Sequence record: OR455461.1
DNA from: Staphylococcus phage AH12
Strand: one strand, 5' to 3'
DNA length: 64,000 nucleotides
Within the stretch, counting starts at the first letter, position 1, and each line of letters begins with the position of its first letter. Made by a program: the position numbers and the translations under genes. Of the stretch, positions 6,254-63,392 are shown one piece after another. The notes under the pieces are model-generated. The model saw nothing but the letters and a program-made list of their open reading frames with translations. It was not told the DNA's origin and did no database searches.

Positions 6254-7999
6254 TTGGAAAACAATAAAGTCGTAGAGAGAGAAGCTTTAAGAGAAGAAGA
6301 TTTAAATTTGAATGAAATAGAAGAAAAGGTAGAAGAAAAGAAAGAAATACCTTTGTTATCTAGTAATGTTTTTAAATTAAAACCGGTTAAAGGTAATTTT
6401 GAGTTTACAAATAAGTATATTAATTCAATAGACTTAGAAACTTATGAGAAAGAAGTAACTCAGAAAAATGGTAATAAGAAGATTGAAACTAAAATCATTC
6501 AGCGAGATGATATTGAAGAATTAATAAAATTTGTTGATGATACTAATGATACATTATTCATTAATGTACATAAGATATTAAACAAACCTAATTTGAATAC
6601 TGATTATGTTAATGACATATTTACAATCCAAATCAAACAACGTTCTTATAAGAGTATATTAGAGTACATTGTCAATGACATGAATTTTATATTTAATGAA
6701 ATACCACATATCATATTAAAATGTGCTAATATTTGTCAAAAAATATTTAGTAAAAAAGATGAATATAGTGAAGAAGAATTCTTCCAAGATATTCAAGATT
6801 TAATTGAAGATGAAGATTTAAGAAATGTTGTTTGTACTATCGTTAATGATAATTATTCCATTGATTTAGATAAGACAAATGCTGAAGCAATGTTACAAAG
6901 TAAAAAAATCATTAAAAAAGATTTACAAGTTACAGACCAAGTCAATAAGTCATTTTTATCAACTGCATTATTGCAAAGATTTATTATACCTTTTATTAAT
7001 CAGTATTATGTACTTACTAATAAATATCATTGTAAGAATACAGATGAAGATAAAGAGAGAACTAAGAATGGATATTTTAAAGCATTTAATTATTGTATGT
7101 GTATTACATCTTTAGATTATAATGTAGCTAATAATAATAAACTTTATAAGATAGTAGAACCTAAAGTAATTAAAACAAAATATAATGACAGAGTTATGTG
7201 GAAGTTTTTAGATTTACGTTCTATAGATCCAGATACAGTAATCAATAAAATAATGGATAAGATTATAAGACAAATAGTATGTAAATTATTAGTTGATACT
7301 TCTGCAGTATCTTATTTCACTTCTGTTATCAAATTCTCAATAGATTATGAATTCCAATTCAAATATCCTATTAAGTTCAGATCAATTAAATTAACTACAG
7401 ATGATGACGATGATGAAGATGGTTTTGATAAATTCCAAATGAATAATTTCTTTAAGCAAAATGAAAGATTAGATATTGCTAATAAAATAACTATTGATCG
7501 TTATATCACTGAAAAATTAAAAGAATTAAATATCAGTGAAGAATATATTAAGCATTTATATGACAAATTTGATTATATAAATGATTTACAATCTCATTTA
7601 ATTAAAGTTTATTTTGCTGAGCATTTTGATGTTAATACAAATGATAGAAAGAGCATTGTATCATTATTAGCAATTATGTCTAAAGAATTAATTGAAAATA
7701 ATATGGATACTTTAGGTAAGATAGTTGCTTCAAAAGTAGTTTCTGGAACTAAAGCTAAGAATGTGGGTAAATTATCATTAGATGTTATTGCAGATAAATA
7801 CTATGTATCTGCTTGGGATAAATATAAATTTATTAATGATATTACTGAAAAAGATAATTTCATATTAAGAATTGCATTAGTTAATGGTTACAAGTTTAGT
7901 TATACTCCTGAAGATTTAAATTCTGAAGAAGAAGTAATTGCTGATATTGATAAAAAATATTTCATTTCTGAAGTATCACAATTTATATCAAATTATTAA
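6254..7999 (+). CDS. hypothetical protein
   Basis: The 581-aa ORF has an RBS 'aaggagag' and a TTG start. Confidence 0.5.
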   Translation: MENNKVVEREALREEDLNLNEIEEKVEEKKEIPLLSSNVFKLKPVKGNFEFTNKYINSIDLETYEKEVTQKNGNKKIETKIIQRDDIEELIKFVDDTNDTLFINVHKILNKPNLNTDYVNDIFTIQIKQRSYKSILEYIVNDMNFIFNEIPHIILKCANICQKIFSKKDEYSEEEFFQDIQDLIEDEDLRNVVCTIVNDNYSIDLDKTNAEAMLQSKKIIKKDLQVTDQVNKSFLSTALLQRFIIPFINQYYVLTNKYHCKNTDEDKERTKNGYFKAFNYCMCITSLDYNVANNNKLYKIVEPKVIKTKYNDRVMWKFLDLRSIDPDTVINKIMDKIIRQIVCKLLVDTSAVSYFTSVIKFSIDYEFQFKYPIKFRSIKLTTDDDDDEDGFDKFQMNNFFKQNERLDIANKITIDRYITEKLKELNISEEYIKHLYDKFDYINDLQSHLIKVYFAEHFDVNTNDRKSIVSLLAIMSKELIENNMDTLGKIVASKVVSGTKAKNVGKLSLDVIADKYYVSAWDKYKFINDITEKDNFILRIALVNGYKFSYTPEDLNSEEEVIADIDKKYFISEVSQFISNY

Positions 8000-22431: not shown

Positions 22432-22986
22432 TTACAGTTCACCATCTTTAATTCTAATGAAGTTAACATTATTTTCTATTAATAAATCCATAACAGGTTC
22501 ATAATCATCATAGAGTTCATTAAAGTAAACTGTTTTTATTCCTGAAGCTATGATATTCTTAGCACAATTGTAACATGGTGAATGTGTGCAATATAAATCA
22601 AGTCCTTCTGTAGATATTCCTTTTTTACTCATTTTAGTCAACGCATTTATTTCTGCATGAACTTCATTAAGTAATGACCATTTATGATGAAGTTCTTGAT
22701 CTTCGCATTCTATTAGCTCATCTCCATTAATTTCATACCAAACATTATCTTTTTTCTTAAATATTTCATTACAATTAACTTTACCAGGAAATGATCCATT
22801 TACTCCTATAGAATATATTGAAGAATTATCTGCAATAATTGAACTAACTTTTTTAGCTGCACACTTACTCAATTCAGAAGCTTCTTTACAATATTTCATA
22901 CATAATATGTTCCATTTATTGATTTCATAAAAATCATTAAATTCATTATCATTAAAATCTATTTTTGTAGTCATAATTAAATTCAT
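22432..22986 (-). CDS. dCMP/cytidine deaminase (zinc-dependent CDA fold)
   Basis: The 'HAEINAL' and 'PCYNCAKNI' motifs match the H-A-E...P-C-x-x-C zinc-binding signature. Confidence 0.75.
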   Translation of the reverse strand: MNLIMTTKIDFNDNEFNDFYEINKWNILCMKYCKEASELSKCAAKKVSSIIADNSSIYSIGVNGSFPGKVNCNEIFKKKDNVWYEINGDELIECEDQELHHKWSLLNEVHAEINALTKMSKKGISTEGLDLYCTHSPCYNCAKNIIASGIKTVYFNELYDDYEPVMDLLIENNVNFIRIKDGEL

Positions 22987-30034: not shown

Positions 30035-30072
30035 TTTCTTCATTATTATAATATATGTTTATATTTCACTAT

Positions 30073-31401: not shown

Positions 31402-32956
31402 TTAATAAATATAATCTTCGATGTCTATTTCATTTTGTTTAATTGTCATATCATGGAAAGACTTCATAGAGCTTGTTACAATTGCTTGAGCTACCTGATT
31501 GACTAATAAACCAATATTTTCTATACCTAATTTGTAAGGGAGTTCTCCTGCACATTTACTACAGATATCTTCACTTGCACAATACATAGGACTTCTGAAG
31601 TTCAATACTTTCCCAATATGCTCATCTACATTTGAAGTAGTTAACAGTGTTAATTGACCTTTTCTTCCTGAATTATCTTCAAAATATCTATAAAGTAAAA
31701 GATTCGCATTATCTTTAGTTAAAGTTAATTTTAATGTATGTTTTGTTCTACAATCAGAACCTTGTTTATCTAATACAGTTGTTTGGAAAGCAGACATAAG
31801 TTTTTTAGCTTGATCATTTTATTATCTATATTTTATTATAGATTAGACTATATCTTATGAATTTAATCATTTCTATATTTAGTCGTTGAACAACTTAATA
31901 AAGTTGATGCTAGTTAGTTTTTAACATTCTAGCAATTAATAGAATTTATTGTGAGCATCTAATTTACCCACCTTCTTGAGTCATTTATGTTAATCTATAT
32001 TAATTTAATATAGATCAGACTATATCAAAAACTCTTTATGAGTTTAATTATATTTAGTCGTTGAACAATCATTCTGATTGATGCTGATTAAGTTTATCTC
32101 TTCTCAGCAATTAATAATTTTTCTATTATTACATTACTATAATAAAGGGCATTCATATACCTAAAGCACGTCCAGCTGAACCAGCAGTCATAATGTCTCC
32201 AAACATATATAGTTCTTCTGGATCAATTCCATCAGCTAAAGAACTCTTAGCAATACGTATTTTACTAGGATCAGCGAAGTTTTTATTTGCTCCACGTATT
32301 AATGCAGTTAACTTGAAGTTATTTCCAAAACTACCTCTTGATCCACTATCATAAATATCAAGGTCTGCTAAACCTTCTAATTCTTCTTTACTTAACTTAA
32401 TTAATTCTTTTTCAATAGCACTAATAGCATTCAATTCTTCACCAGGAGTATTTAATGCTTTACCATATTTCTCTAGTAATTCTTCTTTCTTTTGTTTAAC
32501 TTTATCAGGAGCAACCATCATTGTAGTTGTCAAACTAGAATTAATAAATCCTGCTATAGAGAAACCAAGCCATTGAAGTTTATCAATATACATATTCATA
32601 TCTTTAGTTGTAATAACATCATTAAGTAATAAACTAGATAACTCAGATTGTAGATTTCCTACACCTGATCCTCCCATATCTTTATTCATATATCCTATAA
32701 TAGGTCCTATTTTATTGTCTAATATAAATTTATTAAATATATATCTTCCAACTGTTGTTCTTTCATCTTTACTATTATAAACTAAATCTTTTTTAAGTTT
32801 AAATCTATCGCTAGGATTAAACATTGGTTGTGTATTTTGTCTAAATGCAAATAATTCTTTAAGTTTATCAAGAGTAATATCTTCTTTTTTTATACTTAAT
32901 AAAGTTGATACTTCTTTCTCAGATAAATCTTTTTTATCATAAGTCATATTAACCAA
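31402..32956 (-). CDS. RNA polymerase beta-prime-like subunit, C-terminal half, interrupted by two group I introns; proposed exons 32956..32155, 31981..31962 (mini-exon), 31794..31402
   Basis: 'FRSPMYCASEDICSKCAG...IENIGLLVNQVAQAIVTSSMKSFHDMT' aligns to E. coli beta-prime '[21 protein letters not shown]...[25 protein letters not shown]'. 'KQGSDCRT' aligns to 'TEDDCGT'. Exon A ends GRALGI. The mini-exon restores 'YSRRWVN' (compare 'GYLTRRLVD'). The joined exons total 1215 nt and are in frame. Confidence 0.7.
31795..31961 (-). mobile_element. group I intron (beta-prime intron B), ORF-less, ~165 nt
   Basis: Minus-strand core elements are present: P AATTGCTAGAAT, Q AACTAGCATC, R GTTCAACGACTAAAT and S AGATATAGTCT. 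A 5' junction GGTAAAT|TAGATGCTC is also present. Confidence 0.65.
31982..32154 (-). mobile_element. group I intron (beta-prime intron A), ORF-less, ~170 nt
   Basis: Minus-strand elements are P AATTGCTGAGAA, Q AATCAGCATC, R GTTCAACGACTAAAT and S TGATATAGTCT. The 5' junction is GGTATAT|GAATGCCCTTTATTATAGTAAT and the 3' junction is ATAAATG|ACT. Confidence 0.7.
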
Positions 32957-33272: not shown

Positions 33273-36200
33273 GTGAAGTATCTTAATAGATTAAAGAATT
33301 TAAAATTCTATTCAATTTCAGGATATAAGATTAAAGCTATAGATGAAAATATTAAGGATCAAAAGAAAAACCAATTAATAATTTATAAAGGTTTTAAAGA
33401 AAATTCATTTATAGAATTCTTAAATAGTGGTATATTATATTATCAAAATTTCAAGAATATTTATACTCCTAGAATATATAGAACAGCAAATAGAAAATCA
33501 AGATTAATTACTAATATTTCAGATTATCAACAAGAAATTAAAAGTAAATCAATTAAATCTTATAGAGTTGAAAGAAATGAGAAATTATTTAAAGGAAGAA
33601 ACTATATAGTTGATTCAAGTAAATTTATCAATCTTGAAGATAAATCTTTAATGACTAAGAATTTTAAAACTGTATCAGATTCAATTAAAAATACTTATAA
33701 TAATTTAAATAATCCAGAAGAATATGAAAATTTATTATATGTAATTAATGTAGATGGATACAATAAATCTTCTCAAGAAGCTATTAGACCAAATACAAAA
33801 GATTTTATGTCAAGTTTATTTATGATGATTAAGAATCAGGAAGAATTACCTCATAAAGAAAATCAAAATGTAGTAGCTTTATTTATTTCTATTGAGAACG
33901 GTATAATGTTTAAATTTGATTTTAAAGATTATAATAAATTCAATAATAGATTAAGACAAAGATTAAGAAGAGCTATTGATTTAAATACACAACAAATAGA
34001 TACAGATGAAATTTCTAATGTTGAAGATGATGATAATACAGAAGCTATAGATTCAACTATTAAAAAGAAATCATTTAGCAATGTTAAAGATATTGATCCA
34101 GTTGAATTACAAGATAAGAATGAAGATGAAGTTAATCAGGATATTGAAGATTCTAAGATGGAAAAAATATCTAAGAAAATAGATGATACATTAAGATATA
34201 TTAAATCTAATGATAATATTGATATGGATATTAATGATGAATATAATATTGCAATGATAATTGAAAAAGAATTAAACAATAATAATGATCTTATTGATAT
34301 TGATGAAGATACATTATACAATGATGTACTTGATAAGAATGATTCATTTAAATCAATTAAAAGAGATATTAAAAATAAATCATATATTGGAGACACTGCA
34401 TTAAAGAATTCTAAAAAGATATTATCACTAGCTAAAAATCAAGATGAATATCTTGAAAAATTAGAAGATTTTAGTTTCTCTGAAGATAGTATTATTGATA
34501 GAGAAATTAATGAAAATGTCAATAGTATTAATGATGAAGCAATAAACAATGTATCTTCAAATGATTTTGACTTATCTTATATGAAAAAGACATTTAATAA
34601 AGACTTTGTAAATATTATGAAGAGTTTTAATGATAAGGAAGAAATACCAGTATTCATTAACAAAATGAATGTAGAAGATAATTCAGATTCTCAATCATTA
34701 AAGAATACTGTAAAAGTTCAATTTAAGAGTCCTGATGGAATTAACCATAATGTAAAATTTGATGTACCTAAAATTATTGATGGTAAATATTTAAAATTAA
34801 ATGGTGGTAAAAAGGTTCTAACTAAACAATTAATGATGTATCCTATTGTTAAATATAGACCAGATACAGTTTGGATTACAACTAATTATAATAAATTTAT
34901 CATTGAAAAATTTGGTACTAAAGAGAATTCTGAAACTGAATGGCTTAAAAAAGTTATTGAAGATAAACAAGTACTAGAATACATTAAAGATAAAAATGAT
35001 ATTAATATTCAAAAAGGTAACTCATCTTTAATTAATAAAGAATATTTAACTTCTGTGTTGTATAATAATTTATCTAAAAATATATTAAGATTCTCTAAAG
35101 ATGATTTGATAATTGATTTTAATCAAAGAAATCTTAAAAAAGTTATTTCAGAAAGTAAAACTTTAAGTGAAATTGATTATGATAAAGATAAATACTATCC
35201 TATCGGTTATAGTTCAAACAAATCTAAATTAATATTGTCAAATACTACAGAATCTATTATTTTTAAAGCTACTAAAAGTAATATAGAATCTATGAATATT
35301 AATATTACAGATTATATTATTGAACAACTTGAAGATAATATTGATTTTAGTCTAATAGATAAAAAATTCAGTAAAAATATTCAAGCTAGTAAAACAATGG
35401 CATTTTCTCGTGTTAAAATTACTAATAAATTAATTCCTACAATAGTATTATTAGGTTTCTATAAAGGTTTAACTAGTATTCTTGATCTTTATGAAGTTGA
35501 TTATAAGTTTGTTGAAGAAAATGAAAGAATAACTATTAAAGATAAGAAGAATAAAATTAAATTCCAAAATGGTTATCTTATTTATTCAACAGATAAATTA
35601 AGATATGATTTATTATTATCAGGATTAAATACTATTCCTACTTCACAATATGACTTTGAAGAATTTAATAGTGAAACACCTTACTTAGAATACTTTAATG
35701 ATAAGTTCTATAGTCGTAATGTTGGTAAAGGAATTAAAAATGCATTAGATTTAGCAATGGATCCTATTACAGAAGATGTATTAAGAGATTTAAAATTACC
35801 TGAAACTATGGTTGAGTTATTACTCTTAGCTAATACCATGCTAGAAGATGTAACTGCTAGAGAACACAATGACATGGGAATATATCGTGTACGTGGTCCA
35901 GAACAAGTTAATGCTTTAATGTATAAAATGATTGCAAATGCATATAAAGAATATTCTGACTCTTACAATAATAAGAATCCTAAGAATATTTCAGTTAAAC
36001 AAGACCAATTAATTAAAACTATTATGGAACAACCTACTGTAGATGAAGTATCTGATCTTAATCCATCTTTAGAGATTGATAAGATGACTTCAGTAACTTT
36101 TAAAGGTCCAGCAGGACGTAATAATGAACAATCATATGAACCTGATATTCGTTCATATAGTGAAAGTATGCAAGGCGTATTAGGAATATCTAGTCCTGAT

Positions 36201-38095
36201 AGTAATAAAATTGGGGTAGTTAGACAGCTTTCATATAATTCATTAATTAAATCTACTAGAGGTTATACTGATGGCGGTAAAAAAGATGCTAATGATACAT
36301 CTCTATACACTCCATTAGAATTACTTAACCCTTATTCTAGTAGACATGCCGATAATCAAACATGGATAGTCGGCTTAAAAACTATTTAATTGCTGAAATT
36401 ACTTTAAAGTTAATCAGCATCAATCAAATTGTTCAACGACTAAATAATAGATACTAATTATATAATTAGTAATGATATAGTCTCAACTATGTATAAAGTA
36501 TATAGAAATAAGATAATGTCTCCACGTATTGGAATGACTGGTATATGAATGCCCTTTATTATAGTAATATAATAATAGAAAAATCTTTAATTGCTGAGAA
36601 AATAATAATTAAGTTAATCAGCATCAATCAAATTGTTCAACGACTAAATAAGATTATACCTAAACGGTATTTGATATAGTCTCAGCTTTAATTTATTTTA
36701 AAGAAGTTCATTAAGAACTAATACACAATAAACAAAGTGTATTAAGATAATCTGACTCAAGCCAAGCACGTAATTCCAACAAAAACTAATAGTAAACCAT
36801 TAGTTGGATCTGGTGTTGATAAATCTTTAGCTTATCAATTATCAGATACATTTGCTTTTAAAGCTAAACAAGATGGTAAAGTATTAAAAATTAACGAGAA
36901 AACTGGTTTAATGACAGTAGAATATATCAATGGTGAAAAAGATATTGTTGATATATCTGAAAAATTAGCCAAAAACTCTAACTCAGGTTTTTATCAATCT
37001 AATAAACTTGATCCACAATTTAATGTAGATGACACTTTTAATAAAGGTCAAATACTTGCTAAAAATAATAATTTCTTTGCTGGATCCGGTAAAGATAATG
37101 ATATTCAATTTACTTCAGGTAAATTATCTAAAGTATCTGTAGCTAGCTCATATGGTATTATAAATGCCTTTCATTATAGTAATGTAATGTCAAAAAATTA
37201 TTAATTGCTGAGAAATATTAAATTAATCAGCATCTCTACATTTATAGAGTTCAACGACTAAATATGATTATTCATTAATACTAATGAATTTGATATAGTC
37301 TAATCTATTATAAAAATATAATAGCTAATATAAATGACTTATGAAGATAGTTCTATTATTTCTAGTAGTATGTCTGAAGCAATGTCTACTAAAGTTACTA
37401 TGAAGAAAACAGTAAATATTCCATCAAACACAAATATTCAATATATAGTTAAAGAAGGTCAGAAAGTACGTACAGGTGATCCTTTAATGATATTTGAAAC
37501 TTCATTTGATGAAGAAGGTATTGGTTCTTTATTAGATAAAATCGGTAGTGAATTTGAACAAGATATTCAAGATATAGCTAATCGAGCTGTTAGAAGTAAA
37601 TATACAGGTAATATTAAAAAGATTAATATTTATTATAATGATGATATTGAAAATATGACTGATAGTTTAGCTAAATTAGTTAATAATTACATTAAAAAAT
37701 CAAATGATAAATATAAAGAATATAAATCTGGAGTTAAAAATAATAAAGAAACTTTACCTGGTATTGATGTAGATATTGCAGCTGTAGAGAAAATTAATAC
37801 AGAGAAAATTAAAGGAGAAAAAGTTGACGGAGTTCTTATTGAAATCTTCACTGAATATGAAGATGATATGAGTGTTGGAGATAAAATTAGTTTCTACGGA
37901 GCTTGTAAAACTGTAGTTGCTGATGTAACTCCTCCAAATGAATCACCTTATTCTGAATATAGATCTGATGAAGAAGTTGAAGCTGTATTCTCTCCATTAA
38001 GTATTGTCTCTCGTATGACAGTTGATATTTATATGATGTTATTCACAAATAAAGCTTTAATAGAATTAAAACGTAAAGTAAAAGATATGGTATAA
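33273..38095 (+). CDS. RNA polymerase beta-like subunit interrupted by three group I introns; proposed exons 33273..~36383, 36513..36546 (mini-exon), 36747..~37160, ~37337..38095
   Basis: The exon-1 C-terminus 'GPAGRNNEQSYEPDIRSYSESMQGVLGISSPDSNKIGVVRQLSYNS' aligns to E. coli beta '[46 protein letters not shown]'. 'LLNPYSSRHADNQ' aligns to 'LIPFLEHDDANR'. Exon-3 'QAKHVIPTKTNSKPLVGSG' aligns to 'QRQAVPTLRADKPLVGTG'. The in-frame stops at 36387 and 37202 fall inside intron cores. Confidence 0.65.
36384..36512 (+). mobile_element. group I intron (beta intron 1), short-form 5' region, ORF-less
   Basis: P AATTGCTGAAAT lies at 36388, Q AATCAGCATC at 36412, R GTTCAACGACTAAAT at 36431 and S GATATAGTCTC at 36474. 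A P8-like hairpin is TACTAATTATATAATTAGTA. The 3' junction is TAAG|ATAATG. Confidence 0.6.
36547..36746 (+). mobile_element. group I intron (beta intron 2), ORF-less, 200 nt
   Basis: The 5' junction is GGTATAT|GAATGCCCTTTATTATAGTAAT. The P, Q, R and S elements lie at 36589-36683. The 3' junction is TAAG|ATAATC. The exon joins are in frame and give ...MTGIY|NLTQAKHVIP. Confidence 0.65.
37160..37336 (+). mobile_element. group I intron (beta intron 3), ORF-less
   Basis: The 5' junction is GGTATTAT|AAATGCCTTTCATTATAGTAAT. P lies at 37204, Q at 37226, R at 37250, a P8 hairpin is ATTCATTAATACTAATGAAT and S lies at 37286. The 3' junction is ATAAATG|ACT, analogous to beta-prime intron A. The exact splice sites remain ambiguous, since both 37336 and 37350 are possible 3' ends. 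Confidence 0.55.
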
Positions 38096-38185: not shown

Positions 38186-39448
38186 ATGAATTTGGAATCA
38201 TTGGAAGAATCATTAGATAAAGAATTTAATTTAACTAATGAAGAATTAGAACGTAAGGTAGATACTGATAAAGAAGAGCCTATTTGTGAGGATTGTGGTT
38301 CTAAAAATTTATCTCTTAACGAATCAAATCAATTAGTATGTGAAGATTGTGGTTCTGAGAACAGTAAAGTAGTCAAAGAAGAATTATTAACTGAAGGAAT
38401 TAGTGAATTCTTTGCTAAACATGATGTTAAGAAAATAACTAAAAAAGCAATTAAAAGAGGTGCTACTAAAGTTGTAGTTAAAGAAATTGCAGATTTAGAT
38501 ATGATTGAAAAACTTAAGAAAGATAGAAGAATCAAAAAGTTACTACCATTAATAGGTGTAGTTGGTATGGCAATAAATAAGAAAAGTCCAGCTCAGATCG
38601 TAGCAAATATCGCAATTATTGGGTTGGGTGCAGCACATAGTGAAATATCTTCTAAAACTGAAGCAGGTAAAGATAAAGGATTAACAATTACTTTCACTAA
38701 TGAGGAAAAAGAACTTGTTCAGTCAATTGTTTTTACAACCACTGGATTAGACTTTAATAAAGCTGATGTAAAGAAAACTATTAAATCTTATATTGATAAG
38801 AAAGATAAAGAATTAATTGTAGAAAATATGAATAAATTAAATGAGCTAGATGGTTTGATGGAAGATATTTATATTCAAGAAGGTAAAAAATTAGATAAAG
38901 CTAAAAAAGTGGCTAGAAAAATTTTTGTGGGATTAACTCCTGAAGAAATTAAAGAAAAATTTGCTATACGTGTAGCTAAAAAGAAATATAATATTGAAGT
39001 TAAAAAAGGCTATAAGATAAATTATTCTGACGCTAAATTGTTTACACATGCAACTACACGTAAGGATTCACATACTATAGATTACGAATTAAGTTTAGTA
39101 TTTTCTTTTACTAAACCTAATGGTAAGAAAAGTTTCTTGGATAGAAGCGTTTTCATTTATAATCGTTTCTCAACAATGCAAGAAGCTGTATCATTCCAAA
39201 ATAAACATGGAAAAGATTTATTAAAAATATTTAAAACAACTAAAGCAGATAAAAAACCTAAGAAATCTAAATCAGTTAATGAAGGCATGGAAGAATTAGG
39301 TATTAATGAAGATTTTGAAGACAAATTATTTGAATATTTAGAAGGCGTTACAGAGCAAATCTTATCTGAAGAAAATAAAGAAGAACAACAAACTAATGAA
39401 GATATTACATCTTTAGAAGAATCTTTAGATAAAGAATTCAGTTTATAA
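38186..39448 (+). CDS. hypothetical protein with N-terminal zinc ribbon (CEDCGSKNLSLNESNQLVCEDCGS) and matching terminal direct repeats SLEESLDKEF(N/S)L
   Basis: The 420-aa ORF is a paralog of the zinc-ribbon module in 40881-42797. The first 12 codons are repeated at the C-terminus. Confidence 0.5.
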   Translation: MNLESLEESLDKEFNLTNEELERKVDTDKEEPICEDCGSKNLSLNESNQLVCEDCGSENSKVVKEELLTEGISEFFAKHDVKKITKKAIKRGATKVVVKEIADLDMIEKLKKDRRIKKLLPLIGVVGMAINKKSPAQIVANIAIIGLGAAHSEISSKTEAGKDKGLTITFTNEEKELVQSIVFTTTGLDFNKADVKKTIKSYIDKKDKELIVENMNKLNELDGLMEDIYIQEGKKLDKAKKVARKIFVGLTPEEIKEKFAIRVAKKKYNIEVKKGYKINYSDAKLFTHATTRKDSHTIDYELSLVFSFTKPNGKKSFLDRSVFIYNRFSTMQEAVSFQNKHGKDLLKIFKTTKADKKPKKSKSVNEGMEELGINEDFEDKLFEYLEGVTEQILSEENKEEQQTNEDITSLEESLDKEFSL

Positions 39449-45950: not shown

Positions 45951-46913
45951 ATGGCTAAAAAACATATCGGTACATGGAACGGTGTTCCTGTTTATACTGA
46001 TTTTTTACCAATAGGTACACGTAGAGCTGGAGATAAGCTTAACGGACCTAAATTTATTGTTGCTCATGACACAGGAAACCCTAACACTACTGCTCAAAAT
46101 AATGTCGATTACTATCGTAATTCATATAATATCGACTGGAACTATACTGCTTCAGCACATATTTTTGTTGATGATAAAGAATGTATTATCTGTGTTCCTT
46201 TAGATGAAAAAGCATGGCATGTTATGTATAATACACCAACTGACAATGCTTGGTATGGAGCAGATGCAAACGATGCAGCTATTGGTGTTGAAGGATGTTA
46301 CTTCTCTAATAGAAGTCGTTCATTAAAATCATTTGATAACTATTGTCGTATTCTTGCTTTCTTATGTAAAGAATATAAAATTAATGCAAGCACAAATATG
46401 CCTGGTCACCAAGATATTCAGGCAGATAAACAAGATCCAGGTAACTTATTAGCTGCATGCGGTATGTCTCGTAGTGTTTCTAATGTAGATAAAAAAGTTC
46501 TAGCTTATATGAAAACTGGTGCTACTTCTACAGCTAAAACTTCAACAGCAACTAAAGTTGCTACTAAAGAAGAAGTTGCTAAGAAAGCTCCAGCTAAACC
46601 AGCTAAAACTTCAACTGCAACTTCTAAAACTTGGAAACGTAATTCTGCAGGTATTCTATGGAAAACTGAAAAAGCTACATTTAAATGTGGTGTTGCAGTA
46701 GGTATTAAAACACGTAAAGGTGGTCCATGGACTGGATGGCCGCAAGGTCCATTTATGGCTAAAGGAGATACTATTAAATATGATGAAATTCAAGATTTTG
46801 ATGGATATATTTGGGTATCAGGTAACTTTAAAGGCCAATACGTTTATGTACCGGTTGGTAAATCAACAGGAAATGGTAAACGTGTAGGTCCAGCATGGGG
46901 TACATTTAGTTAA
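45951..46913 (+). CDS. endolysin 1: N-acetylmuramoyl-L-alanine amidase (Amidase_2/PGRP) + SH3b (SH3_5) cell-wall-binding domain
   Basis: The amidase motifs 'IVAHDTGNP', 'WHV' and 'GVEGCYF' are present. The C-terminal 'WKRNSAGILWKTEKATFKCGV...GPAWGTFS' aligns to staphylococcal lysin SH3b domains. An RBS 'aatggagga' lies upstream. Confidence 0.8.
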   Translation: MAKKHIGTWNGVPVYTDFLPIGTRRAGDKLNGPKFIVAHDTGNPNTTAQNNVDYYRNSYNIDWNYTASAHIFVDDKECIICVPLDEKAWHVMYNTPTDNAWYGADANDAAIGVEGCYFSNRSRSLKSFDNYCRILAFLCKEYKINASTNMPGHQDIQADKQDPGNLLAACGMSRSVSNVDKKVLAYMKTGATSTAKTSTATKVATKEEVAKKAPAKPAKTSTATSKTWKRNSAGILWKTEKATFKCGVAVGIKTRKGGPWTGWPQGPFMAKGDTIKYDEIQDFDGYIWVSGNFKGQYVYVPVGKSTGNGKRVGPAWGTFS

Positions 46914-47028: not shown

Positions 47029-47826
47029 ATGAAAACAAAAACTCAAGCTCTTGATTGGGTTAATAATCGTATTGGTCGCAGACTAGACTTTGATGGTTGG
47101 TATGGAGCTCAGTGTATGGATTTAACTATAGGTTACTGTGATTATATTTCAGGAGGTTCATTCCGTCCTTGGGGTAATGCAATTAATCTTAAAGACAATA
47201 CAATGCCAGCTGGATGGGAATTAATTAAAAATACTACATCATTCCTACCTCAACCTGGTGATATTGCTATTTGGGCTTATGCACCTTACGATGTTTATGG
47301 TCATACAGGTATTATTACTTCAGCTAACTTAAATAATTTCTATTCAATTGATCAGAACTGGTTTAACGCAGGAAGTAATGGTTCACCTGCTGCTAAAGTA
47401 TTTCATGATTATACAGGTTTCTGGGGAGTAATTCGTCCAGCTTTTGGTAGTACAACTACTAAGAAAGCAGTTACTAAGGAAGTCGCTACTAAGAAAGCAG
47501 TTGTTAAGAAAGCAACTCCTAAGAAAGCAACTACAACAGCTACTTGGAAACGTAACTCTGCAGGCATTCTATGGAAAACTGAAAAAGCTACATTTAAATG
47601 TAATGTATCTTCAGGAATCATTACACGTAAAAATGGTCCATGGACTGGATGGGCTCAAGGTCCATTTATGAAGAAAGGCGATAGTATTAAATATGACGAA
47701 ATTCAAGATTTTGATGGTCATGTTTGGGTATCAGGTAAATTTAAAGGACAATATGTATACGTGCCAATTGGTAAATCAAATGGTAAAGGACAACGTATTG
47801 GTGCCGCATGGGGTACATTTAGTTAA
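47029..47826 (+). CDS. endolysin 2: CHAP peptidase + SH3b (SH3_5) domain
   Basis: The CHAP Cys 'GAQCMDL' and His 'YGHTGII' are present. The C-terminal SH3b is about 85-90% identical to that of 45951-46913. Confidence 0.8.
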   Translation: MKTKTQALDWVNNRIGRRLDFDGWYGAQCMDLTIGYCDYISGGSFRPWGNAINLKDNTMPAGWELIKNTTSFLPQPGDIAIWAYAPYDVYGHTGIITSANLNNFYSIDQNWFNAGSNGSPAAKVFHDYTGFWGVIRPAFGSTTTKKAVTKEVATKKAVVKKATPKKATTTATWKRNSAGILWKTEKATFKCNVSSGIITRKNGPWTGWAQGPFMKKGDSIKYDEIQDFDGHVWVSGKFKGQYVYVPIGKSNGKGQRIGAAWGTFS

Positions 47827-53765: not shown

Positions 53766-55322
53766 TTATTTTAACTTAAAATCAGTAACGTTTAAAGCCT
53801 TTTTCTTAAATACATTTTTTAATCTATTATTAGCTTGTGTTACTAGTTTTTTAAATCCATGATCGACAAAATCAAAATACATCAATTTTTCATTTTCAAT
53901 ATAGCGTAATCTTCCCATTATCTGTATAACTTTACTTTCAGATGATAATGGAACTGTATTAATGACAGCTTTGAGACCAGGTATATCTATACCTGTTCCT
54001 AAAGATAAATCTGTAGTAATTATTAGATTAGATTCTAATACTTTAGATTTTTCTTCTTTATCAATTCCATCATAGTAGCGAATACAGTTTAGAAATTCTA
54101 ATCCTTCTTTACCTAATTTTTCTTCTAAATAGTAATAAAACTCATCTATCATATTTTTCAATTTAAACATAACGACAGTTTTTCTTATTTCTTTTTTCAT
54201 AATAACTTCATTAATGATATTAAATATCATATCAAAATATTCATCTTTTCTCTTATCTTTATCTATAAGATATTTACTGTAATGATTTATATTAAGACCA
54301 TTTCTTCTTGATGCTGAAACAAAATCAGCTAGTTCTGTTTCACTAGGTTCACTATTGTAGCGTATAATGAACACATCATGATATTTAGATGGTATCTTTC
54401 TATTAGAAGCTATTTGTCTATCATAATTATCTGATCTAAACATTGGTACGTTAAGGAATATATTACTGAATACCATATTCTCTGATTTATCAGATCTTTC
54501 AGGAGTTGCAGAAAGATATATAGATGGTAAATCTGTTTGTATATCTATATTTGTTAAACTTCTAAAGTCTAAATGTGCTTCATCAAATATTTTAATAGAT
54601 ACTTTAGTTTTAAATATTAGTTCTTGTAATTTTTCAATGTCGTCTTCTATAAATGAATTTAATGTCTTATACATAACTATATAGAAATCTATTTTACTAC
54701 GTTCATCAGACTTCATTTTAAATAATTTATTAATACTTGATTTACCTTGAATAATATATATTCTTTCGTCATCAATATTGGTATATTCTTTAATTTTATC
54801 AAACCATTGTTCTTTAAGTTTGTTATTATTAACAAATATCATAGGAACTAGCTGACGATCAATAACACTTTTTAAAGCACAAAAAGTTTTACCTTCACCA
54901 GTTTTAAGTGATAAAAATTTCTGGGTTGAAGCTTCATATATACTAAAAGCGTTTAAGAATTCAATAGATTTCTTTTGTAATAAATCTCTTGGTTTAAAAT
55001 TCATTTCCACATCATAATTCTTTTTAGGTTTAAAATATAAATTGTCTACTTTTCTAAAATCTTGAAAATCTACTTCTCCATGATTTTGTAATGACTGAAT
55101 TAATATCTTCATATTTATTCCAGCAGGAAATGATATAGTTTTCTCTTCCTCATTATATATGAAAGCTTTATAAGTATATTTAAAGTATATTTTATCCCAT
55201 ACAGATAGATACTTCTCTATTGCTGAGCAATATCCTAGTTCATAATTTTCAACAAGAATTCGTGTCGGATAAACCGACACTTTTATTTTTCTTGTCTTAT
55301 TTAAAACTACCATAAATTTCAA
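53766..55322 (-). CDS. SF2 DEAD/DEAH-box helicase
   Basis: Motif I is 'LKTGEGKT', motif II is 'IFDEAH' and motifs V/VI are 'ITTDLSLGTGIDIPGL'. Confidence 0.7.
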   Translation of the reverse strand: MKFMVVLNKTRKIKVSVYPTRILVENYELGYCSAIEKYLSVWDKIYFKYTYKAFIYNEEEKTISFPAGINMKILIQSLQNHGEVDFQDFRKVDNLYFKPKKNYDVEMNFKPRDLLQKKSIEFLNAFSIYEASTQKFLSLKTGEGKTFCALKSVIDRQLVPMIFVNNNKLKEQWFDKIKEYTNIDDERIYIIQGKSSINKLFKMKSDERSKIDFYIVMYKTLNSFIEDDIEKLQELIFKTKVSIKIFDEAHLDFRSLTNIDIQTDLPSIYLSATPERSDKSENMVFSNIFLNVPMFRSDNYDRQIASNRKIPSKYHDVFIIRYNSEPSETELADFVSASRRNGLNINHYSKYLIDKDKRKDEYFDMIFNIINEVIMKKEIRKTVVMFKLKNMIDEFYYYLEEKLGKEGLEFLNCIRYYDGIDKEEKSKVLESNLIITTDLSLGTGIDIPGLKAVINTVPLSSESKVIQIMGRLRYIENEKLMYFDFVDHGFKKLVTQANNRLKNVFKKKALNVTDFKLK

Positions 55323-56134: not shown

Positions 56135-56210
56135 ATTTAAATTCCTCCTTAGTAATTTTTATATAATATACCAAACTCTAAAGTTAATTAGAGTTTGGTT
56201 AAATCAATTG

Positions 56211-58127
56211 TTAAATATCAAAATCAAATAATGGATCGAACATAGATTCATTATCTTTACTGAAAAATCCATTAGTTTCATCTGTAGTAAGCTGAGCACG
56301 AACATTTTCAAATATCAGTGAATGTACTGGTGAAGGTGAATTTAATATAGAGTTACCTACATTACGTAAAGTAATTTTAGGATTAAATTCAGGATCTTTA
56401 TATTTCACTCTATCTTCATATATCGTATCATTCAAGAATACCATATTACGAATAATAGTCTCTACATGTACTGACATAACATCTGTACCTGACTTTAATA
56501 ATAGATCCATTACATCATTAAACATTCTTTGATAATCTTTTTCTTCATAATCATTCTTAATAAAATTACTTCTTTCTAATATAGAACGAATTTTTAGAAG
56601 TGGATCGGCTACACCTTCATTTTTAATTTTAATATTAAATAAGAAATTCTCTCCTAAATCTTTCATATTAAATACATAAGCATTTTCATCTTCATTGTAG
56701 AATTTTTCAATTGAATCAAATTTCTGATCTGGTATTCTAAGAATAACAGGTGATTTAACTTCATGTACCTTAGTACCTATTTTAAATTTAAATGATTTAG
56801 CTTTATATTTTCCATAATCAATATCTTCATTAATAATCATATCATCTATAATAACTTTAGTTTTCTCATCACGAGGAATAATATTATCTCCAGAGAATTC
56901 AAAGTGTTCATTAAATATATCTGGCCATGAAAATTCAGAAAGTTGAACAGCTTGAAGATGTTTTGTTGAAAGTAATTTCTGTGTCATAGGTTCTGTTAAC
57001 TGTAATGTAGCTATGATACCTACTGCTAAATTTCTATTAATATCATATAGTCTTCTTCCATAACACACTTGACATATTTTACCATTCGGTTCAGCACATG
57101 TTATAGGAGATCTTAATGGTACAATTTGACCTATTAAATGAACATCATTTCTACTATCAATTAATTTAAATTCTTGATCATTATCATCATAATAGTATCT
57201 ATCATTAATACGATCTAATTTTTCCTTACTATCTACATTGAAGTAAAGTAAATGCTTACTACCACAATCATGATTATCTGATAATTTTAAATCTGAAGTT
57301 AATAATGTAATCTTACGATTTAAATAACCTGATTCTCTAACTTTATTCTTAGAGTTCATTAAAGCATTTAAAGAAGATTCTGCATCAATAGCAAATTGAG
57401 TTGTATTCTTTAATCCACGCATAAATGAAGTATCAATAATATCAGTAACAACATCTCCACGAATATCAGGTTTAAATCCTACAAAACTTAATACCTCATT
57501 CAATTGTATTTTATTTATACCTGTTCCAGATTCTAAGAAAGTTTTATAATCATTTTCTTTATCCATCTTAATATGTTTAATAAGATTATCCATATTAGGT
57601 TTTTGAACTTCATTAATAATTTGTTGATACGTTAAATTAGGATCAATATCTTCATTATCAAAGTTAATTAATCTTTCAATTTCTTTATCTTCATTAGCTA
57701 ATCTCATAATATCATATAAAGATATAGAAGGTCCATCTACAGGAAGTATATATTCATTTGAGAATATAGTAAGTTCATCAATGATATAAGCTATTGATTG
57801 ACTGATTTTAATAGGGTCATGTCCTTCTTTAATAAAGTTCACTACAATTTTATCAAAATAATCATAGTAATCATTAATATTAGTTGGATTAACTAAATAC
57901 TCTTCTGTAAATTCCTTATTCATTTCTCTAAAAGGTTTTCCTAAAATTAATAATGTTAAATAATTACTTTTAGAAATATTATCTTCAAAGTAGTCACTCA
58001 TTCTGTCTTTAGGGTTATTAATAATATCCTGCTTTAATTCTTCTATTATTTTATAATAATTATCCGAATGTAAATAGTTATTATATTTACCCAATTTTAA
58101 ATCTAAAACTAACTTTTCTTCACTCAT
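56211..58127 (-). CDS. second RNA polymerase beta-prime-like subunit, C-terminal half (paralog of 31402-32956, intron-free)
   Basis: 'ESGYLNRKITLLTSDLKLSDNHDCGS' aligns to beta-prime '[25 protein letters not shown]'. 'CAEPNGKICQVCYGRRLYDINRNLAVGIIATLQLTEPMTQKLLSTKH' aligns to '[42 protein letters not shown]'. Confidence 0.7.
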   Translation of the reverse strand: MSEEKLVLDLKLGKYNNYLHSDNYYKIIEELKQDIINNPKDRMSDYFEDNISKSNYLTLLILGKPFREMNKEFTEEYLVNPTNINDYYDYFDKIVVNFIKEGHDPIKISQSIAYIIDELTIFSNEYILPVDGPSISLYDIMRLANEDKEIERLINFDNEDIDPNLTYQQIINEVQKPNMDNLIKHIKMDKENDYKTFLESGTGINKIQLNEVLSFVGFKPDIRGDVVTDIIDTSFMRGLKNTTQFAIDAESSLNALMNSKNKVRESGYLNRKITLLTSDLKLSDNHDCGSKHLLYFNVDSKEKLDRINDRYYYDDNDQEFKLIDSRNDVHLIGQIVPLRSPITCAEPNGKICQVCYGRRLYDINRNLAVGIIATLQLTEPMTQKLLSTKHLQAVQLSEFSWPDIFNEHFEFSGDNIIPRDEKTKVIIDDMIINEDIDYGKYKAKSFKFKIGTKVHEVKSPVILRIPDQKFDSIEKFYNEDENAYVFNMKDLGENFLFNIKIKNEGVADPLLKIRSILERSNFIKNDYEEKDYQRMFNDVMDLLLKSGTDVMSVHVETIIRNMVFLNDTIYEDRVKYKDPEFNPKITLRNVGNSILNSPSPVHSLIFENVRAQLTTDETNGFFSKDNESMFDPLFDFDI

Positions 58128-58233
58128 ATCCTAATCTCTCCTTAATTATAAATAAATCAAATATTGTTACATATTTATAATATATAATTGAATAATGGTT
58201 TGTAATAAACCATTATTCAATTATTTTTATATC

Positions 58234-61522: not shown

Positions 61523-63392
61523 TTAAGCTCCTTTACTTTTTATTTTATCAGATACTTTCTTAGCTGCAACATTCAATGGAGGTAAACCATGAAATTCTTG
61601 AGCAAAGGATACACTATCTTGACTGTTAAATTTACTAATAAATTCAGTATTAAAGTCATAATTTAATTTGTCTTCTTCATACTTAGGAACTGTCATTGTA
61701 GATTTATCTCGTATTTGAATTTTACCTATGTGTCCTTCAGGAGTTATATTAAATCCTCTAATAATTGAAGGATATAGTGAACTCAAGTCAAAGTCACATA
61801 CATTACTAAATATTCTATTAGATCTAATATCTTTACCTTTAACTAAAATATCTCCCATACGTTCTATTAAAGTCATATTAGCTACAAATCCACCACGTAT
61901 TTTATCTGCATTTGGATCAGATAGTATTTTAGAGTGATTATTACTTAATACAAATCCTTGATTTTCAAAGAAGACAGAACTACGATTTCTTAAACAAATA
62001 GTTTTCTTAAGTGCTTTACTTGGTCTAGTTCTAGTCATATCTACAATAGAGAATAGTAAATCAAACATATTAGTGTTCTTCTCTATTAAAGCAGTTAATA
62101 TGGTATCTTTAATATTATAAAGAATGAATGTGTAATAATCTCTAAAATGTAAATCAGAGATAGAGCCTTCATATACATCCTTTTTAATTCCAGTTTCTTT
62201 TTCACCAACATCATTTAACTTAACTGATTCCATTACACCGTTCGGTTTATTCACATTTGCATATAAAGCTAATTGGTCAATCCAGTTAGTGTATGAGTTA
62301 GTTTCGAATGTAGATGATCTATTAGCTGCATCTGTAGCATTCTTATCTAATCTATAATAAGCTTTTTTATCTTGTAAATCTTTAGAACAGAAATAATCTG
62401 CTGGATCTTCTCCATTAACTTTAATTCTTTCAAATATAGTTGCAAAGTCAAAATCTAGATTCCATGCGGTACATATATCAGGCTTACTAATTTCATTAAT
62501 ATAGTATAAGAATGATTTAATAATTTCCATTTCAGTATCTAATTCATATATTTCAAATTCTAAACCTAAATCTTCTCCAATCTCACTATCTTTATTATTA
62601 TAAATATTATTTAGATCTTCCATTAATTTAGTTTTATCTGTCATAACTTCATTATAATTATCCGTATCATATTTTAATGCAAATGTTAAACATTTACGTT
62701 TACTCCAATCAACTACAGTTATAATATTAATTTCAGCCATTCCTGGTTCAGGGACATTTATATTAACTTCATACAATTGTATAAAGATTAGACTATATCT
62801 TATCAATATCAGTGATAATTATATTTAGTCGTTGAACACAATTAAATGTGATGCTGATTGTCTTTAAACTTTTCAGCAATTAATAATTTTTTAATTGAGC
62901 TACCTAAAACCCAATTACATTTGATCCATCTACCTCTATATCAAATAGACATATATCAATTCCAACTTTACTATCTAAGTTTTGTTTGATATATTCATTG
63001 ATATTATAATCTTCAATATTAATATCAGATCCATGAACATTATTCATTAAATGAAAATCTTTTAATTTTCTAAACTCTTCATAATTACCTGAAGATAATA
63101 TTCTATCGTATTCTGATTTATCTTGAGCATTACCTGCTTCTCTAACTATAGATTTAATAACATCTTTATGTTTACAATGTACAGTTCTAACTTTCTCTTT
63201 TGCCATAGAACCTACAACTTGACCAGGTGGTAACCAATATTCATCTTTAGTAACATAATAGTGCATCATTGGATCCACTATTTCCATATGTTTTTTAGTT
63301 CCATCTTCTTCTTTAACAACCATTACTACTTTTTCTTTTTTATTAGATGTTTCTTTTTTATTCAAATATGTTGATTTTATAAAACGACCCAT
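61523..63392 (-). CDS. family B DNA polymerase, N-terminal part (3'-5' exonuclease motifs I-III + polymerase motif A), interrupted by a group I intron; proposed exons 63392..~62906 and 62754..61523
   Basis: Exo I is 'LFDIEVDG', Exo II is 'TAWNLDFDFATIFERI' and Exo III is 'YYTFILYNIKD'. Motif A is 'DFDLSSLYPSIIRG'. Motifs B and C were not found in this window. Confidence 0.65.
62755..62905 (-). mobile_element. group I intron in polB, ORF-less, short-form 5' region
   Basis: Minus-strand elements are P AATTGCTGAAAAG, Q AATCAGCATC, R GTTCAACGACTAAAT and S AGATATAGTCT. The 3' junction ATAAATG|TCC matches the other introns. The first about 17 codons of track ORF 61523-62806 are intronic. Confidence 0.65.

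What the first reader, a model, noticed from the sequence alone, without database searches (positions are those of the whole stretch)
56211..58127. Second, paralogous beta-prime C-terminal subunit: the window encodes parts of two distinct multisubunit RNA polymerases
ORF 56211-58127 contains the same beta-prime signatures as 31402-32956 (SGYL.R...DCG; C.VCYGR...VGIIATLQLTEPMTQ) but is highly diverged from it and has no introns. Two sets of split beta/beta-prime-like genes are characteristic of AR9/PBS1-type jumbo phages, which carry a virion RNAP and a non-virion RNAP. The dCMP deaminase gene at 22432-22986 is consistent with a dU-containing genome. The SH3_5 and CHAP lysins suggest a Staphylococcus-like host rather than Bacillus.
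Basis: partly seen in the sequence, partly recalled or inferred. Interest (0 to 1): 0.7.

Follow-up and report, generated by a model that had tools for sequence, protein, structure and literature searches.

The report
Non-virion RNA polymerase β′ subunit gene
The ORF is the intact gene for the C-terminal half of β′ of the second (non-virion) RNA polymerase of a Staphylococcus jumbo phage close to phages Machias and PB50, which is a real but already described feature of AR9/PBS1-type uracil-DNA phages.

Summary
The observation and its interpretation hold, but the feature is already known. ORF 56211-58127 (-) is the ortholog of AR9 gp154, the β′ C-terminal subunit of the non-virion RNA polymerase (nvRNAP). 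Its best solved-structure match is 7S00 chain D (E 7e-79, near full length), and it shares AR9's gene order. It is 97.5% identical in DNA to annotated genes of S. aureus jumbo phages PB50 and Machias.

The locus at 31402-32956 is the ortholog of AR9 gp264, a virion RNAP (vRNAP) β′ piece. The two proteins share 26% identity over 125 residues, spanning the bridge helix, the zinc site and the start of the trigger loop. Both are under purifying selection.

The window also encodes the nvRNAP promoter-specificity subunit (6254-7999, gp226-like, with the uracil-discriminating valine conserved) and the vRNAP β gene (33273-38095).

Two corrections apply. The vRNAP gene is the β′ "mid" piece, not the C-terminal end. 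Its gap holds two tandem small group I introns around a 16-nt micro-exon, not one intron.

These introns belong to a family without ORFs, 151-212 nt long. The window has 6 copies and the PB50 genome has 22 matches. Public annotations do not describe the family.

The parts
56211..58127 (-). nvRNAP β′ C-terminal subunit gene (638 aa, no intron). It carries the bridge helix (SGYLNRK, 57312-57332), a 4-Cys zinc site (DCGS 57258-57269; C..C..C 57054-57098), trigger-loop helix 1 (56958-57023), a trigger-loop insertion domain, and the C-terminal β′ regions.
58177..58184 (-). TATATTAT motif 50-57 nt upstream of the ATG, followed by the RBS AAGGAGAG. It resembles the AR9/MarsHill early (vRNAP) promoter core. 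AR9 g154 has an annotated early promoter at the equivalent place.
   Evidence: The motif is not enriched in the window as a whole, so this rests on position only.
58184..58224 (.). 19-bp hairpin (terminator-like) between the portal gene and the nvRNAP β′C gene.
   Evidence: Machias annotates a terminator at the same place.
56170..56199 (-). 12-bp terminator-like hairpin just downstream of the ORF. The gene therefore looks monocistronic.
6254..7999 (+). nvRNAP promoter-specificity subunit (AR9 gp226-like, 581 aa). The valine that excludes thymine in AR9 (V206) is conserved.
31402..32956 (-). vRNAP β′ 'mid' subunit gene (AR9 gp264 ortholog), in three exons. Exon 1 is 32956..32159, intron 1 is 32158..31982 (177 nt), the micro-exon is 31981..31966 (16 nt, TQEGG + first base of Y, bridge helix), intron 2 is 31965..31815 (151 nt), and exon 3 is 31814..31402. 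The spliced product is 408 aa.
33273..38095 (+). vRNAP β (C-terminal part) gene, in four exons: 33273-36353, 36519-36542 (24-nt mini-exon, SPRIGMTG), 36755-37156 and 37337-38095. The introns are 36354-36518 (165 nt), 36543-36754 (212 nt) and 37157-37336 (180 nt). The spliced product is 1421 aa.
   Evidence: The DC4 ortholog was found in virions.
22432..22986 (-). dCMP deaminase, which supplies dUMP. This fits a dU-substituted genome.

Best explanation
The window comes from an AR9/PBS1-type uracil-DNA jumbo phage of Staphylococcus, about 95-97.5% identical in DNA to Machias and PB50.

ORF 56211-58127 encodes the β′ C-terminal subunit of the phage's non-virion RNA polymerase. It supplies the bridge helix, the second zinc site, a trigger loop carrying an insertion domain, and the C-terminal β′ regions.

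By analogy with AR9, it assembles with β′N, βN and βC subunits, which are encoded outside the window, into a four-piece core. The gp226-like subunit encoded at 6254-7999 joins this core. In AR9 that holoenzyme reads a 3′-UUGU-5′ element on the template strand of uracil-containing late promoters.

The gene itself looks like an early gene, with an AR9-like TATATTAT element and flanking hairpins. It would be transcribed by the injected virion polymerase. Two subunits of that virion enzyme, β′-mid (31402-32956) and β (33273-38095), are encoded in the same window.

Shown here: homology, orthology, conserved catalytic motifs, intact reading frames after splicing, and purifying selection. Inferred from AR9 and relatives: subunit assembly, absence from the virion, timing of expression, and uracil-dependent promoter recognition.
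For: Homology of the ORF to the nvRNAP β′C family:
- Near full-length match to AR9 gp154 in solved nvRNAP structures (7s00/7s01/7um0/7um1, E 7.4e-79). Next come phiKZ nvRNAP gp74 (2.8e-18) and bacterial β′ residues 723-938.
- tblastn finds a single place in AR9, namely g154, annotated as the non-virion RNAP β′ C-terminus.
- The ORF is followed by small ORFs and an SF2 helicase, as g154 is in AR9, and it follows the portal gene as in MarsHill, Machias and PB50.
- MarsHill and Madawaska orthologs are annotated as the non-viral RNAP β′ subunit.
- The AR9 trigger-loop insertion domain (gp154 400-508, PMC9209446) is aligned in the window protein.

A second nvRNAP subunit in the window:
- The gp226 ortholog matches 7s01_A at E 9.4e-41, with V206 conserved.
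- PB50 annotates the same gene as the specificity subunit.

The paralog:
- It maps to AR9 gp264, a virion RNAP subunit.
- The DC4 ortholog of the neighbouring β gene was detected in virions.

Selection: dN/dS is 0.06-0.17.

Published context: Machias and its relatives carry five vRNAP and five nvRNAP subunit genes and behave as dU-DNA phages. Several window genes are orthologs of proteins reported as exclusive to uracil-DNA phages.
Against: - No expression, virion-proteome or biochemical data exist for this phage. The 'non-virion' label rests on orthology at 33.5% identity to AR9.
- The promoter-like TATATTAT motif is not enriched in this AT-rich window.
- The partner core subunits (βN, βC, β′N) are not in the window, so the completeness of the enzyme cannot be seen here.
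- I207 of AR9 gp226 is M in the window protein. The details of uracil recognition could therefore differ.
Confidence: 0.93

Rival explanations
1. The ORF is a decaying duplicate (pseudogene) of the other β′ gene, or both belong to the same enzyme.
For: The two share homologous motifs.
Against: - The ORF is intact at 638 aa and conserved in nine Staphylococcus phages. dN/dS is 0.06 against Machias and 0.17 against MarsHill.
- The two paralogs fall in different orthologous groups, phrog_3015 and phrog_2962, and map to different AR9 subunits.
- Both cover the bridge helix to the start of the trigger loop. One polymerase has this segment only once.
Confidence: 0.01
2. The assignments are swapped: 56211-58127 is the virion enzyme's β′ piece and 31402-32956 is the non-virion one.
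For: No proteomics exists for this phage. In DC4, only one RNAP subunit was reported in virions.
Against: - The ORF's best match is the purified and crystallised AR9 nvRNAP chain.
- The undivided roughly 630-aa β′C architecture is that of nvRNAP. The vRNAP β′ is split into three pieces, and the third piece is found elsewhere in PB50.
- The vRNAP β ortholog next to the 31402 locus was detected in DC4 virions.
Confidence: 0.03
3. The ORF is a captured host (bacterial) rpoC fragment with no role in a phage-specific polymerase.
For: It matches bacterial β′ over residues 195-392.
Against: - Bacterial matches are weak (E about 1e-8 to 1e-13) and partial. The AR9 match is 7e-79 and near full length.
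- The DNA has the phage's 25% GC.
- No E. coli-type or Staphylococcus-type β′ flanking regions are present.
Confidence: 0.01

Closest known systems
Bacillus phage AR9 gp154 (nvRNAP β′ C-terminal subunit; PDB 7S00/7S01/7UM0/7UM1)
   Same: The lengths are similar (638 vs 631 aa) and the alignment is near full length, at 33.5% identity by tblastn. Both have the bridge helix, the zinc site, a trigger loop with an insertion domain, and the C-terminal region. Both have a neighbouring SF2 helicase, an early-promoter-like element upstream, and a gp226-type partner in the genome.
   Different: The host is Staphylococcus rather than Bacillus, and only about a third of residues are identical. In AR9 the gene follows the DNA polymerase region. 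Here it follows the portal gene.
Staphylococcus jumbo phages Machias (gp144) and vB_StaM_PB50 (WPH64319.1), and more distantly MarsHill gp141, Madawaska, S6, PALS_2, DC4, LY01 and SA1
   Same: Identity to Machias and PB50 is 97.4-97.5% in DNA and 98.3-98.4% in protein, and 78-83% to the others. The gene order is the same and the annotations read β′ or non-viral RNAP β′.
   Different: The window is not identical to any record. Its exact protein is not on record. Its content of introns and homing endonucleases also differs:
- An HE ORF at 30119-31366 is absent from Machias.
- Machias has an HE-containing insertion in vRNAP β that the window lacks.
- PB50 lacks intron 1 of β′-mid.
phiKZ gp74 (nvRNAP β′ C-terminal subunit, PDB 7OGP)
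   Same: It has the same role and the same split position. It matches over residues 195-395, from the bridge helix to the trigger loop.
   Different: The relationship is much more distant (E 2.8e-18, partial). phiKZ has thymine DNA, and its fifth subunit gp68 works differently (PMC9209446).
AR9 gp264 and the vRNAP β′-mid family (the paralog in this window)
   Same: It covers the same β′ segment, with 26% identity over 125 residues.
   Different: It is shorter (408 aa) and ends just after trigger-loop helix 1. It is interrupted by two introns here and belongs to the virion enzyme.

Membership tests
Jumbo-phage nvRNAP β′ C-terminal subunit (AR9 gp154 / phiKZ gp74 type) | Full-length sequence homology to gp154, closer than to the vRNAP paralog or to cellular β′. 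| tested here: met
   7s00_D matches at E 7.4e-79 over 29-633 of 638 residues. phiKZ gp74 matches at 2.8e-18 and bacterial β′ at 1e-13 or weaker. The paralog in the window matches at only 6e-9. phrog_3015 scores 1.3e-68 against 2.7e-18 for phrog_2962.
Jumbo-phage nvRNAP β′ C-terminal subunit (AR9 gp154 / phiKZ gp74 type) | β′ catalytic-centre elements of the C-terminal half: bridge helix, Cys4 zinc site, and a trigger loop with a conserved His. | tested here: met
   SGYLNRK, DCGS, C344/C352/C355 and ...TEPMTQKLLSTKH are present. They align to the AR9, phiKZ and bacterial motifs.
Jumbo-phage nvRNAP β′ C-terminal subunit (AR9 gp154 / phiKZ gp74 type) | One undivided polypeptide running from after the DPBB split to the β′ C-terminus. 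The vRNAP β′ has a further split. | tested here: met
   The 638-aa ORF aligns to AR9 gp154 through residue 630. The vRNAP paralog stops after trigger-loop helix 1, and its last piece is a separate gene in PB50. The architecture is described.
Jumbo-phage nvRNAP β′ C-terminal subunit (AR9 gp154 / phiKZ gp74 type) | The genome also encodes the other nvRNAP subunits, including the fifth (specificity) subunit. | tested here: met
   The gp226-like gene is in the window. The nvRNAP β and β′N genes are annotated in the near-identical PB50 genome but lie outside the window.
Jumbo-phage nvRNAP β′ C-terminal subunit (AR9 gp154 / phiKZ gp74 type) | The protein is absent from virions, is made early, and is part of the enzyme that transcribes late genes. 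| not testable with these tools
   There is only indirect support: an early-promoter-like TATATTAT motif upstream and DC4 virion proteomics that reported the vRNAP β ortholog only.
Uracil-DNA (AR9/PBS1-like) jumbo phages | Virion DNA has dU in place of dT. | not testable with these tools
   Support is indirect. The window has a dCMP deaminase, a conserved gp226 V206 equivalent, and orthologs of proteins reported as exclusive to uracil-DNA phages. dU was reported for S6 and inferred for Machias and MarsHill.
Group I introns (for the interruptions in the paralogous vRNAP genes and the DNA polymerase gene) | Conserved core helices P3-P8 (P7 formed by the R and S elements), a U at the 5′ splice site paired to an internal guide G, and a terminal G. 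| tested here: met
   - All six introns follow a T and end in G. Boundaries were fixed against intron-free alleles.
- The R element GTTCAACGACTAAAT and the S element GATATAGTCT are present.
- P3, P4, P6 and P8 are 97.8% paired against 73% in shuffles, and 16 of 22 pairs show compensatory changes. The alignment was fitted to the model.
Group I introns (for the interruptions in the paralogous vRNAP genes and the DNA polymerase gene) | Reaches the curated Rfam RF00028 gathering score. | tested here: not met
   Scores are 15.9-36.1 bits against a cut-off of 50. Local E-values are 2.6e-7 to 5.4e-5 for four introns and 0.29 for one. The short length (151-212 nt against a 253-position model) explains the shortfall.
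Group I introns (for the interruptions in the paralogous vRNAP genes and the DNA polymerase gene) | Self-splicing with a guanosine cofactor. | not testable with these tools
   Splicing is inferred from the intact reading frames obtained after removing the introns.

The most novel reading that the evidence does not exclude
The RNAP paralogy itself is known. The least-described thing at this locus is the set of interruptions in the paralog.

They belong to a compact group I intron lineage without ORFs, 151-212 nt long and below Rfam's threshold. It has multiplied to 6 copies in this window and 22 model matches in the PB50 genome. It sits in nearly every RNAP subunit gene except the one in this finding and the gp226-like gene.

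Twice it occurs as tandem pairs that leave micro-exons of 16 and 24 nt. These encode the core of the β′ bridge helix and of the β motif aligned to bacterial 'ANRALMGA'.

Three members share their 5′ end and the insertion context GGT^ACT. This suggests spread to new sites guided by a very short P1.

The introns may serve as immunity against free-standing Hef-like endonucleases such as the one at 30119-31366. They may also act in competition between co-infecting jumbo phages.
Probability: 0.4. Interest if true: 0.45.

Novelty: already known. Interest (0 to 1): 0.2.

Why it matters
For the finding as stated, the value is correct annotation. The window can be labelled as part of a Machias/PB50-like Staphylococcus jumbo phage with two multisubunit RNA polymerases. 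Published work already describes this for the clade, and AR9 structures explain it mechanistically.

The gp226-like subunit keeps the uracil-discriminating valine. This gives a sequence-level reason to expect AR9-style promoter recognition on the uracil-containing template strand in a Staphylococcus phage.

The practical by-product is better gene models. Public records of the closest relatives either split the vRNAP genes into fragments or join only two pieces. They therefore miss the micro-exons that encode catalytic-centre residues.

Tried and rejected
- **Rfam at gathering thresholds, whole window:** only two tRNA-like hits and no introns. Introns appeared only in local E-value scans.
- **Exact-protein look-up of the 638-aa product:** not on record, so the source isolate could not be named.
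- **IMG/VR scan with a gapped intron-core pattern:** no matches.
- **Search for the vRNAP β′ C-terminal-most piece in the window:** phmmer with the nvRNAP β′C tail against all window ORFs found nothing. The gene lies elsewhere in PB50.
- **TATATTAT as a window-wide promoter signal:** 40 matches against 34.6 expected, so not enriched. The generic sigma-70 scan was at background level.
- **RNAalifold on a plain MAFFT alignment of the six introns:** it recovered only P4, P6 and P7. One intron (36354-36518) was misaligned and was left out of the seed for the covariance model.
- **My first guess about the 24-nt mini-exon of β:** I took it for the 'PSRMNIGQ' motif. The alignment to bacterial β shows it matches 'ANRALMGA' instead.
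- **My first coordinates for the DNA polymerase intron:** they were off by a few bases. I corrected them from the P1 pairing and the reading frame.
- **Literature searches for 'smallest group I intron' and for a description of these introns:** nothing useful turned up. The mBio 2026 paper on phage JS1 was irrelevant.
- **Large protein-database searches and structure prediction:** not run, because a solved homolog at E 7e-79 already settles the identity.
Full report
**What is at the coordinates**

ORF 56211-58127 on the minus strand is a 638-aa reading frame that starts with ATG.
- SGYLNRK at residues 266-272
- DCGS at 287-290
- CAEPNGKICQVCYGR at 344-358
- VGIIATLQLTEPMTQKLLSTKH at 369-390

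Profile searches assign it to RNA polymerase β′. Pfam RNA_pol_Rpb1_5 scores E 2.5e-8, above its curated cut-off. PHROG phrog_3015 scores E 1.3e-68.

Against solved structures, the best match is chain D of the AR9 non-virion RNA polymerase (7S00/7S01/7UM0/7UM1). The E-value is 7.4e-79, and residues 29-633 align to 43-630 of 631. Next come phiKZ gp74 (2.8e-18) and then bacterial β′ residues about 723-938.

**Where the window comes from**

The ORF is 97.5% identical in DNA to Staphylococcus phage vB_StaM_PB50 and 97.4% to Machias. It is 82-83% identical to S6, PALS_2, DC4, MarsHill, Madawaska and LY01, all jumbo phages of S. aureus. A 20-kb stretch of the window is 95-95.5% identical to PB50 and Machias over 90% of its length.

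The window is AT-rich, at about 25% GC. The exact protein is not on record. The window is therefore a new isolate of a described clade.

**Which polymerase each paralog belongs to**

In AR9, tblastn with the ORF finds a single place. That place is g154, annotated as 'non-virion RNAP subunit; β′ subunit, C-terminus', and it has an early promoter annotated upstream.

Gene order is kept. In AR9, g154 is followed by a small ORF and an SF2 helicase. In the window the ORF is followed by two small ORFs and an SF2 helicase (53766-55322; Pfam ResIII and Helicase_C). It is preceded by the portal gene, as in MarsHill, Machias and PB50.

The other locus (31402-32956) matches phrog_2962 and AR9 g264, which is annotated as a virion RNAP subunit.

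The two window proteins share 26% identity over 125 residues (E 6e-9). The shared stretch runs from the bridge helix through the zinc site to the first trigger-loop helix. Both cover the same part of β′, so they cannot be parts of one enzyme.

Both are under purifying selection:
- The ORF has dN/dS 0.06 against Machias and 0.17 against MarsHill.
- The paralog has dN/dS 0.13 against both MarsHill and S6.

The pseudogene reading is excluded.

**More of both enzymes in the window**

ORF 6254-7999 (+) matches phrog_25005 and AR9 gp226, the nvRNAP promoter-specificity subunit (7S01 chain A, E 9.4e-41). PB50 annotates the same gene that way.

In AR9, V206 of gp226 sterically excludes thymine at promoter position -10. 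It is reported as invariant among homologs in uracil-DNA phages (PMC9209446). In the alignment this valine is conserved (window 'ndrVMwkf', AR9 'sdvVIwty').

The gene starting at 33273 is the vRNAP β gene (phrog_38251 E 4e-147). Its ortholog in phage DC4 was detected in virions by proteomics (PMC10638138).

The window therefore carries two subunits of each polymerase.

**How the gene most likely works**

By homology with the AR9 structures, the 638-aa protein provides the following parts:
- the bridge helix
- the second zinc site
- the trigger loop, with the insertion domain described for gp154 residues 400-508
- the C-terminal β′ regions

It would assemble with β′N, βN and βC into a core, which the gp226-like subunit joins. 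In PB50 the partner subunits are encoded outside the region that matches the window. In AR9 the holoenzyme recognises 3′-UUGU-5′ on the template strand of uracil DNA.

Between the portal stop codon and the ORF lie three elements, in this order:
1. a 19-bp hairpin at 58184-58224
2. TATATTAT at 58177-58184
3. an AAGGAGAG ribosome-binding site

A second hairpin follows the ORF at 56170-56199. The TATATTAT core equals the early promoter core reported for AR9 and MarsHill. AR9 g154 has an early promoter at the equivalent distance. The motif is not enriched across the window, so early transcription by the virion enzyme remains an inference.

**The side claims**

- 22432-22986 is a dCMP deaminase.
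- 45951-46913 is Amidase_2 plus SH3_5.
- 47029-47826 is CHAP plus SH3_5.

Published work reports uracil DNA for S6 and infers it for MarsHill, Madawaska and Machias. It notes the dCMP deaminase and describes five virion and five non-virion RNAP subunit genes (bioRxiv 10.1101/2020.12.14.422802).

Two window genes are orthologs of Machias proteins listed as exclusive to uracil-DNA phages (PMC10303552). The equivalence rests on length and collinearity:
- 17742-20732 (996 aa)
- 25958-26650 (230 aa)

First, the vRNAP β′ is encoded in three pieces. The gene at 31402-32956 is the 'mid' piece, as Machias annotates it. It ends just after the first trigger-loop helix. The last piece is not in the window. 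In PB50 it lies next to the tail sheath gene.

Second, the gap in that gene is not one intron. Alignment with the intron-free alleles of S6, MarsHill and SA1 shows two insertions, of 177 nt (32158..31982) and 151 nt (31965..31815). They are separated by a 16-nt micro-exon, ACTCAAGAAGGTGGGT, at 31981..31966.

PB50 has only the second insertion. Machias and LY01 have both.

Removing both insertions gives an intact 408-aa frame. The micro-exon encodes TQEGG and the first base of Y. This aligns to the centre of the bacterial bridge helix ('TADSGY').

Public records miss the micro-exon:
- Machias joins only two pieces.
- PB50 and LY01 annotate two separate CDSs.

**The intron family (outside the finding, partly followed up)**

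Intron positions:
- The vRNAP β gene has three insertions of the same kind: 36354-36518, 36543-36754 and 37157-37336.
- The first two are in tandem around a 24-nt mini-exon (36519-36542, SPRIGMTG).
- Splicing gives 1421 aa.
- The mini-exon aligns to 'ANRALMGA' of the conserved bacterial β motif [20 protein letters not shown].
- The DNA polymerase exonuclease-domain gene has a sixth copy, at 62908..62755. Splicing gives 571 aa.

Evidence that these are group I introns:
- All six follow a T and end in G.
- All six carry the R and S core elements.
- They match Rfam's group I model end to end but below its threshold, at 15.9-36.1 bits against 50. Local E-values go down to 2.6e-7.
- A covariance model built from five copies finds exactly six in the window and none in the AR9, S6, MarsHill or SA1 loci held.
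- On 13 distinct copies, P3, P4, P6 and P8 are 97.8% paired, against 73% in shuffles and 31-52% when the partners are slid. Sixteen of 22 pairs show compensatory changes. The alignment was fitted to the model.

Spread of the family:
- None of the six window copies contains an ORF.
- The same model finds 22 matches in the PB50 genome. By the PB50 annotation tables they lie in or between the CDS fragments of these genes: the large terminase, the scaffold/protease, ribonucleotide reductase, gyrase B, both DNA polymerase genes, vRNAP β′N, β′-mid, βN and βC, and nvRNAP β′N and β.
- None lies in the nvRNAP β′C gene of this finding or in the gp226-like gene.
- BLAST with one intron gives 29 places in Machias, 32 in LY01, 20 in PB50, 11 in Madawaska and 7 in MarsHill. 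It gives none in S6, PALS_2, DC4 or SA1. This agrees with the DC4 authors finding no introns with Rfam.
- Three window copies share the 5′ end ATATGAATGCC... and the insertion context GGT^ACT.

**Verdict**

The finding is correct, and its interpretation is supported. It describes a feature already published for this clade and worked out structurally for AR9, so its novelty is 'already known' and its interest is low.

The undescribed part is the compact, multiplied group I intron family and the micro-exons it creates in the paralogous virion-polymerase genes. That needs RNA-level confirmation.

Noticed in passing
window 31815-32158 (-), 36354-36754 (+), 37157-37336 (+), 62755-62908 (-): Six ORF-less group I introns of one family, 151-212 nt long, all below Rfam's gathering score. 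Two tandem pairs leave micro-exons of 16 nt (31966-31981, β′ bridge helix) and 24 nt (36519-36542, conserved β motif). Public annotations of Machias, PB50 and LY01 miss the micro-exons.
   Followed up: partly
L011-L016 (PB50 whole genome); counts for Machias, LY01, MarsHill and Madawaska: The same intron core occurs 22 times in PB50 (covariance model). BLAST gives about 29-32 places in Machias and LY01, and none in S6, PALS_2, DC4 or SA1. It interrupts most RNAP subunit genes but not the nvRNAP β′C or gp226-like genes.
   Followed up: partly
window 32158/31981, 36543/36755, 37157/37337: Three introns share a nearly identical 5′ end (ATATGAATGCCCTTTATTATAGTAAT...) and the same insertion context (GGT^ACTCAAG, or GGT^ACTTATG), in two different genes. 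P1 uses only about three exon bases. This suggests spread to ectopic sites.
   Followed up: no
window 30119-31366 (-): A 415-aa Hef-like or REase-type homing endonuclease ORF lies directly downstream of the vRNAP β′-mid gene. It is absent at this place in Machias. AR9 also has a Hef-like endonuclease (g265) directly downstream of the orthologous g264.
   Followed up: partly
window 26707-28965 (-): A 752-aa homing-endonuclease-like ORF (phrog_3339, repeated zinc-finger-like modules, REase_MTES_1575 domain). It has an internal run of (KDKV) repeats.
   Followed up: no
window 29517-29605 and 29964-30035 (-): Two tRNA-like genes (Rfam tRNA 60 and 45.8 bits). ARAGORN cannot assign them an anticodon ('tRNA-???', 2-base anticodon 'tt'). 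Machias annotates the equivalents as tRNA-Asn pseudogenes. One of them is 89 nt long.
   Followed up: no
window 38186-39448 (+): A 420-aa ORF with no family match. Only its 3′ half matches Machias (gp163). Where Machias and PB50 have two ORFs plus an opposite-strand gene, the window has this single ORF, so there is a local rearrangement.
   Followed up: no
window 17742-20732 (+), 25958-26650 (+): Orthologs of proteins listed in PMC10303552 as found only in uracil-DNA phages (Machias QQO92559.1 and QQO92553.1). Their functions are unknown.
   Followed up: no
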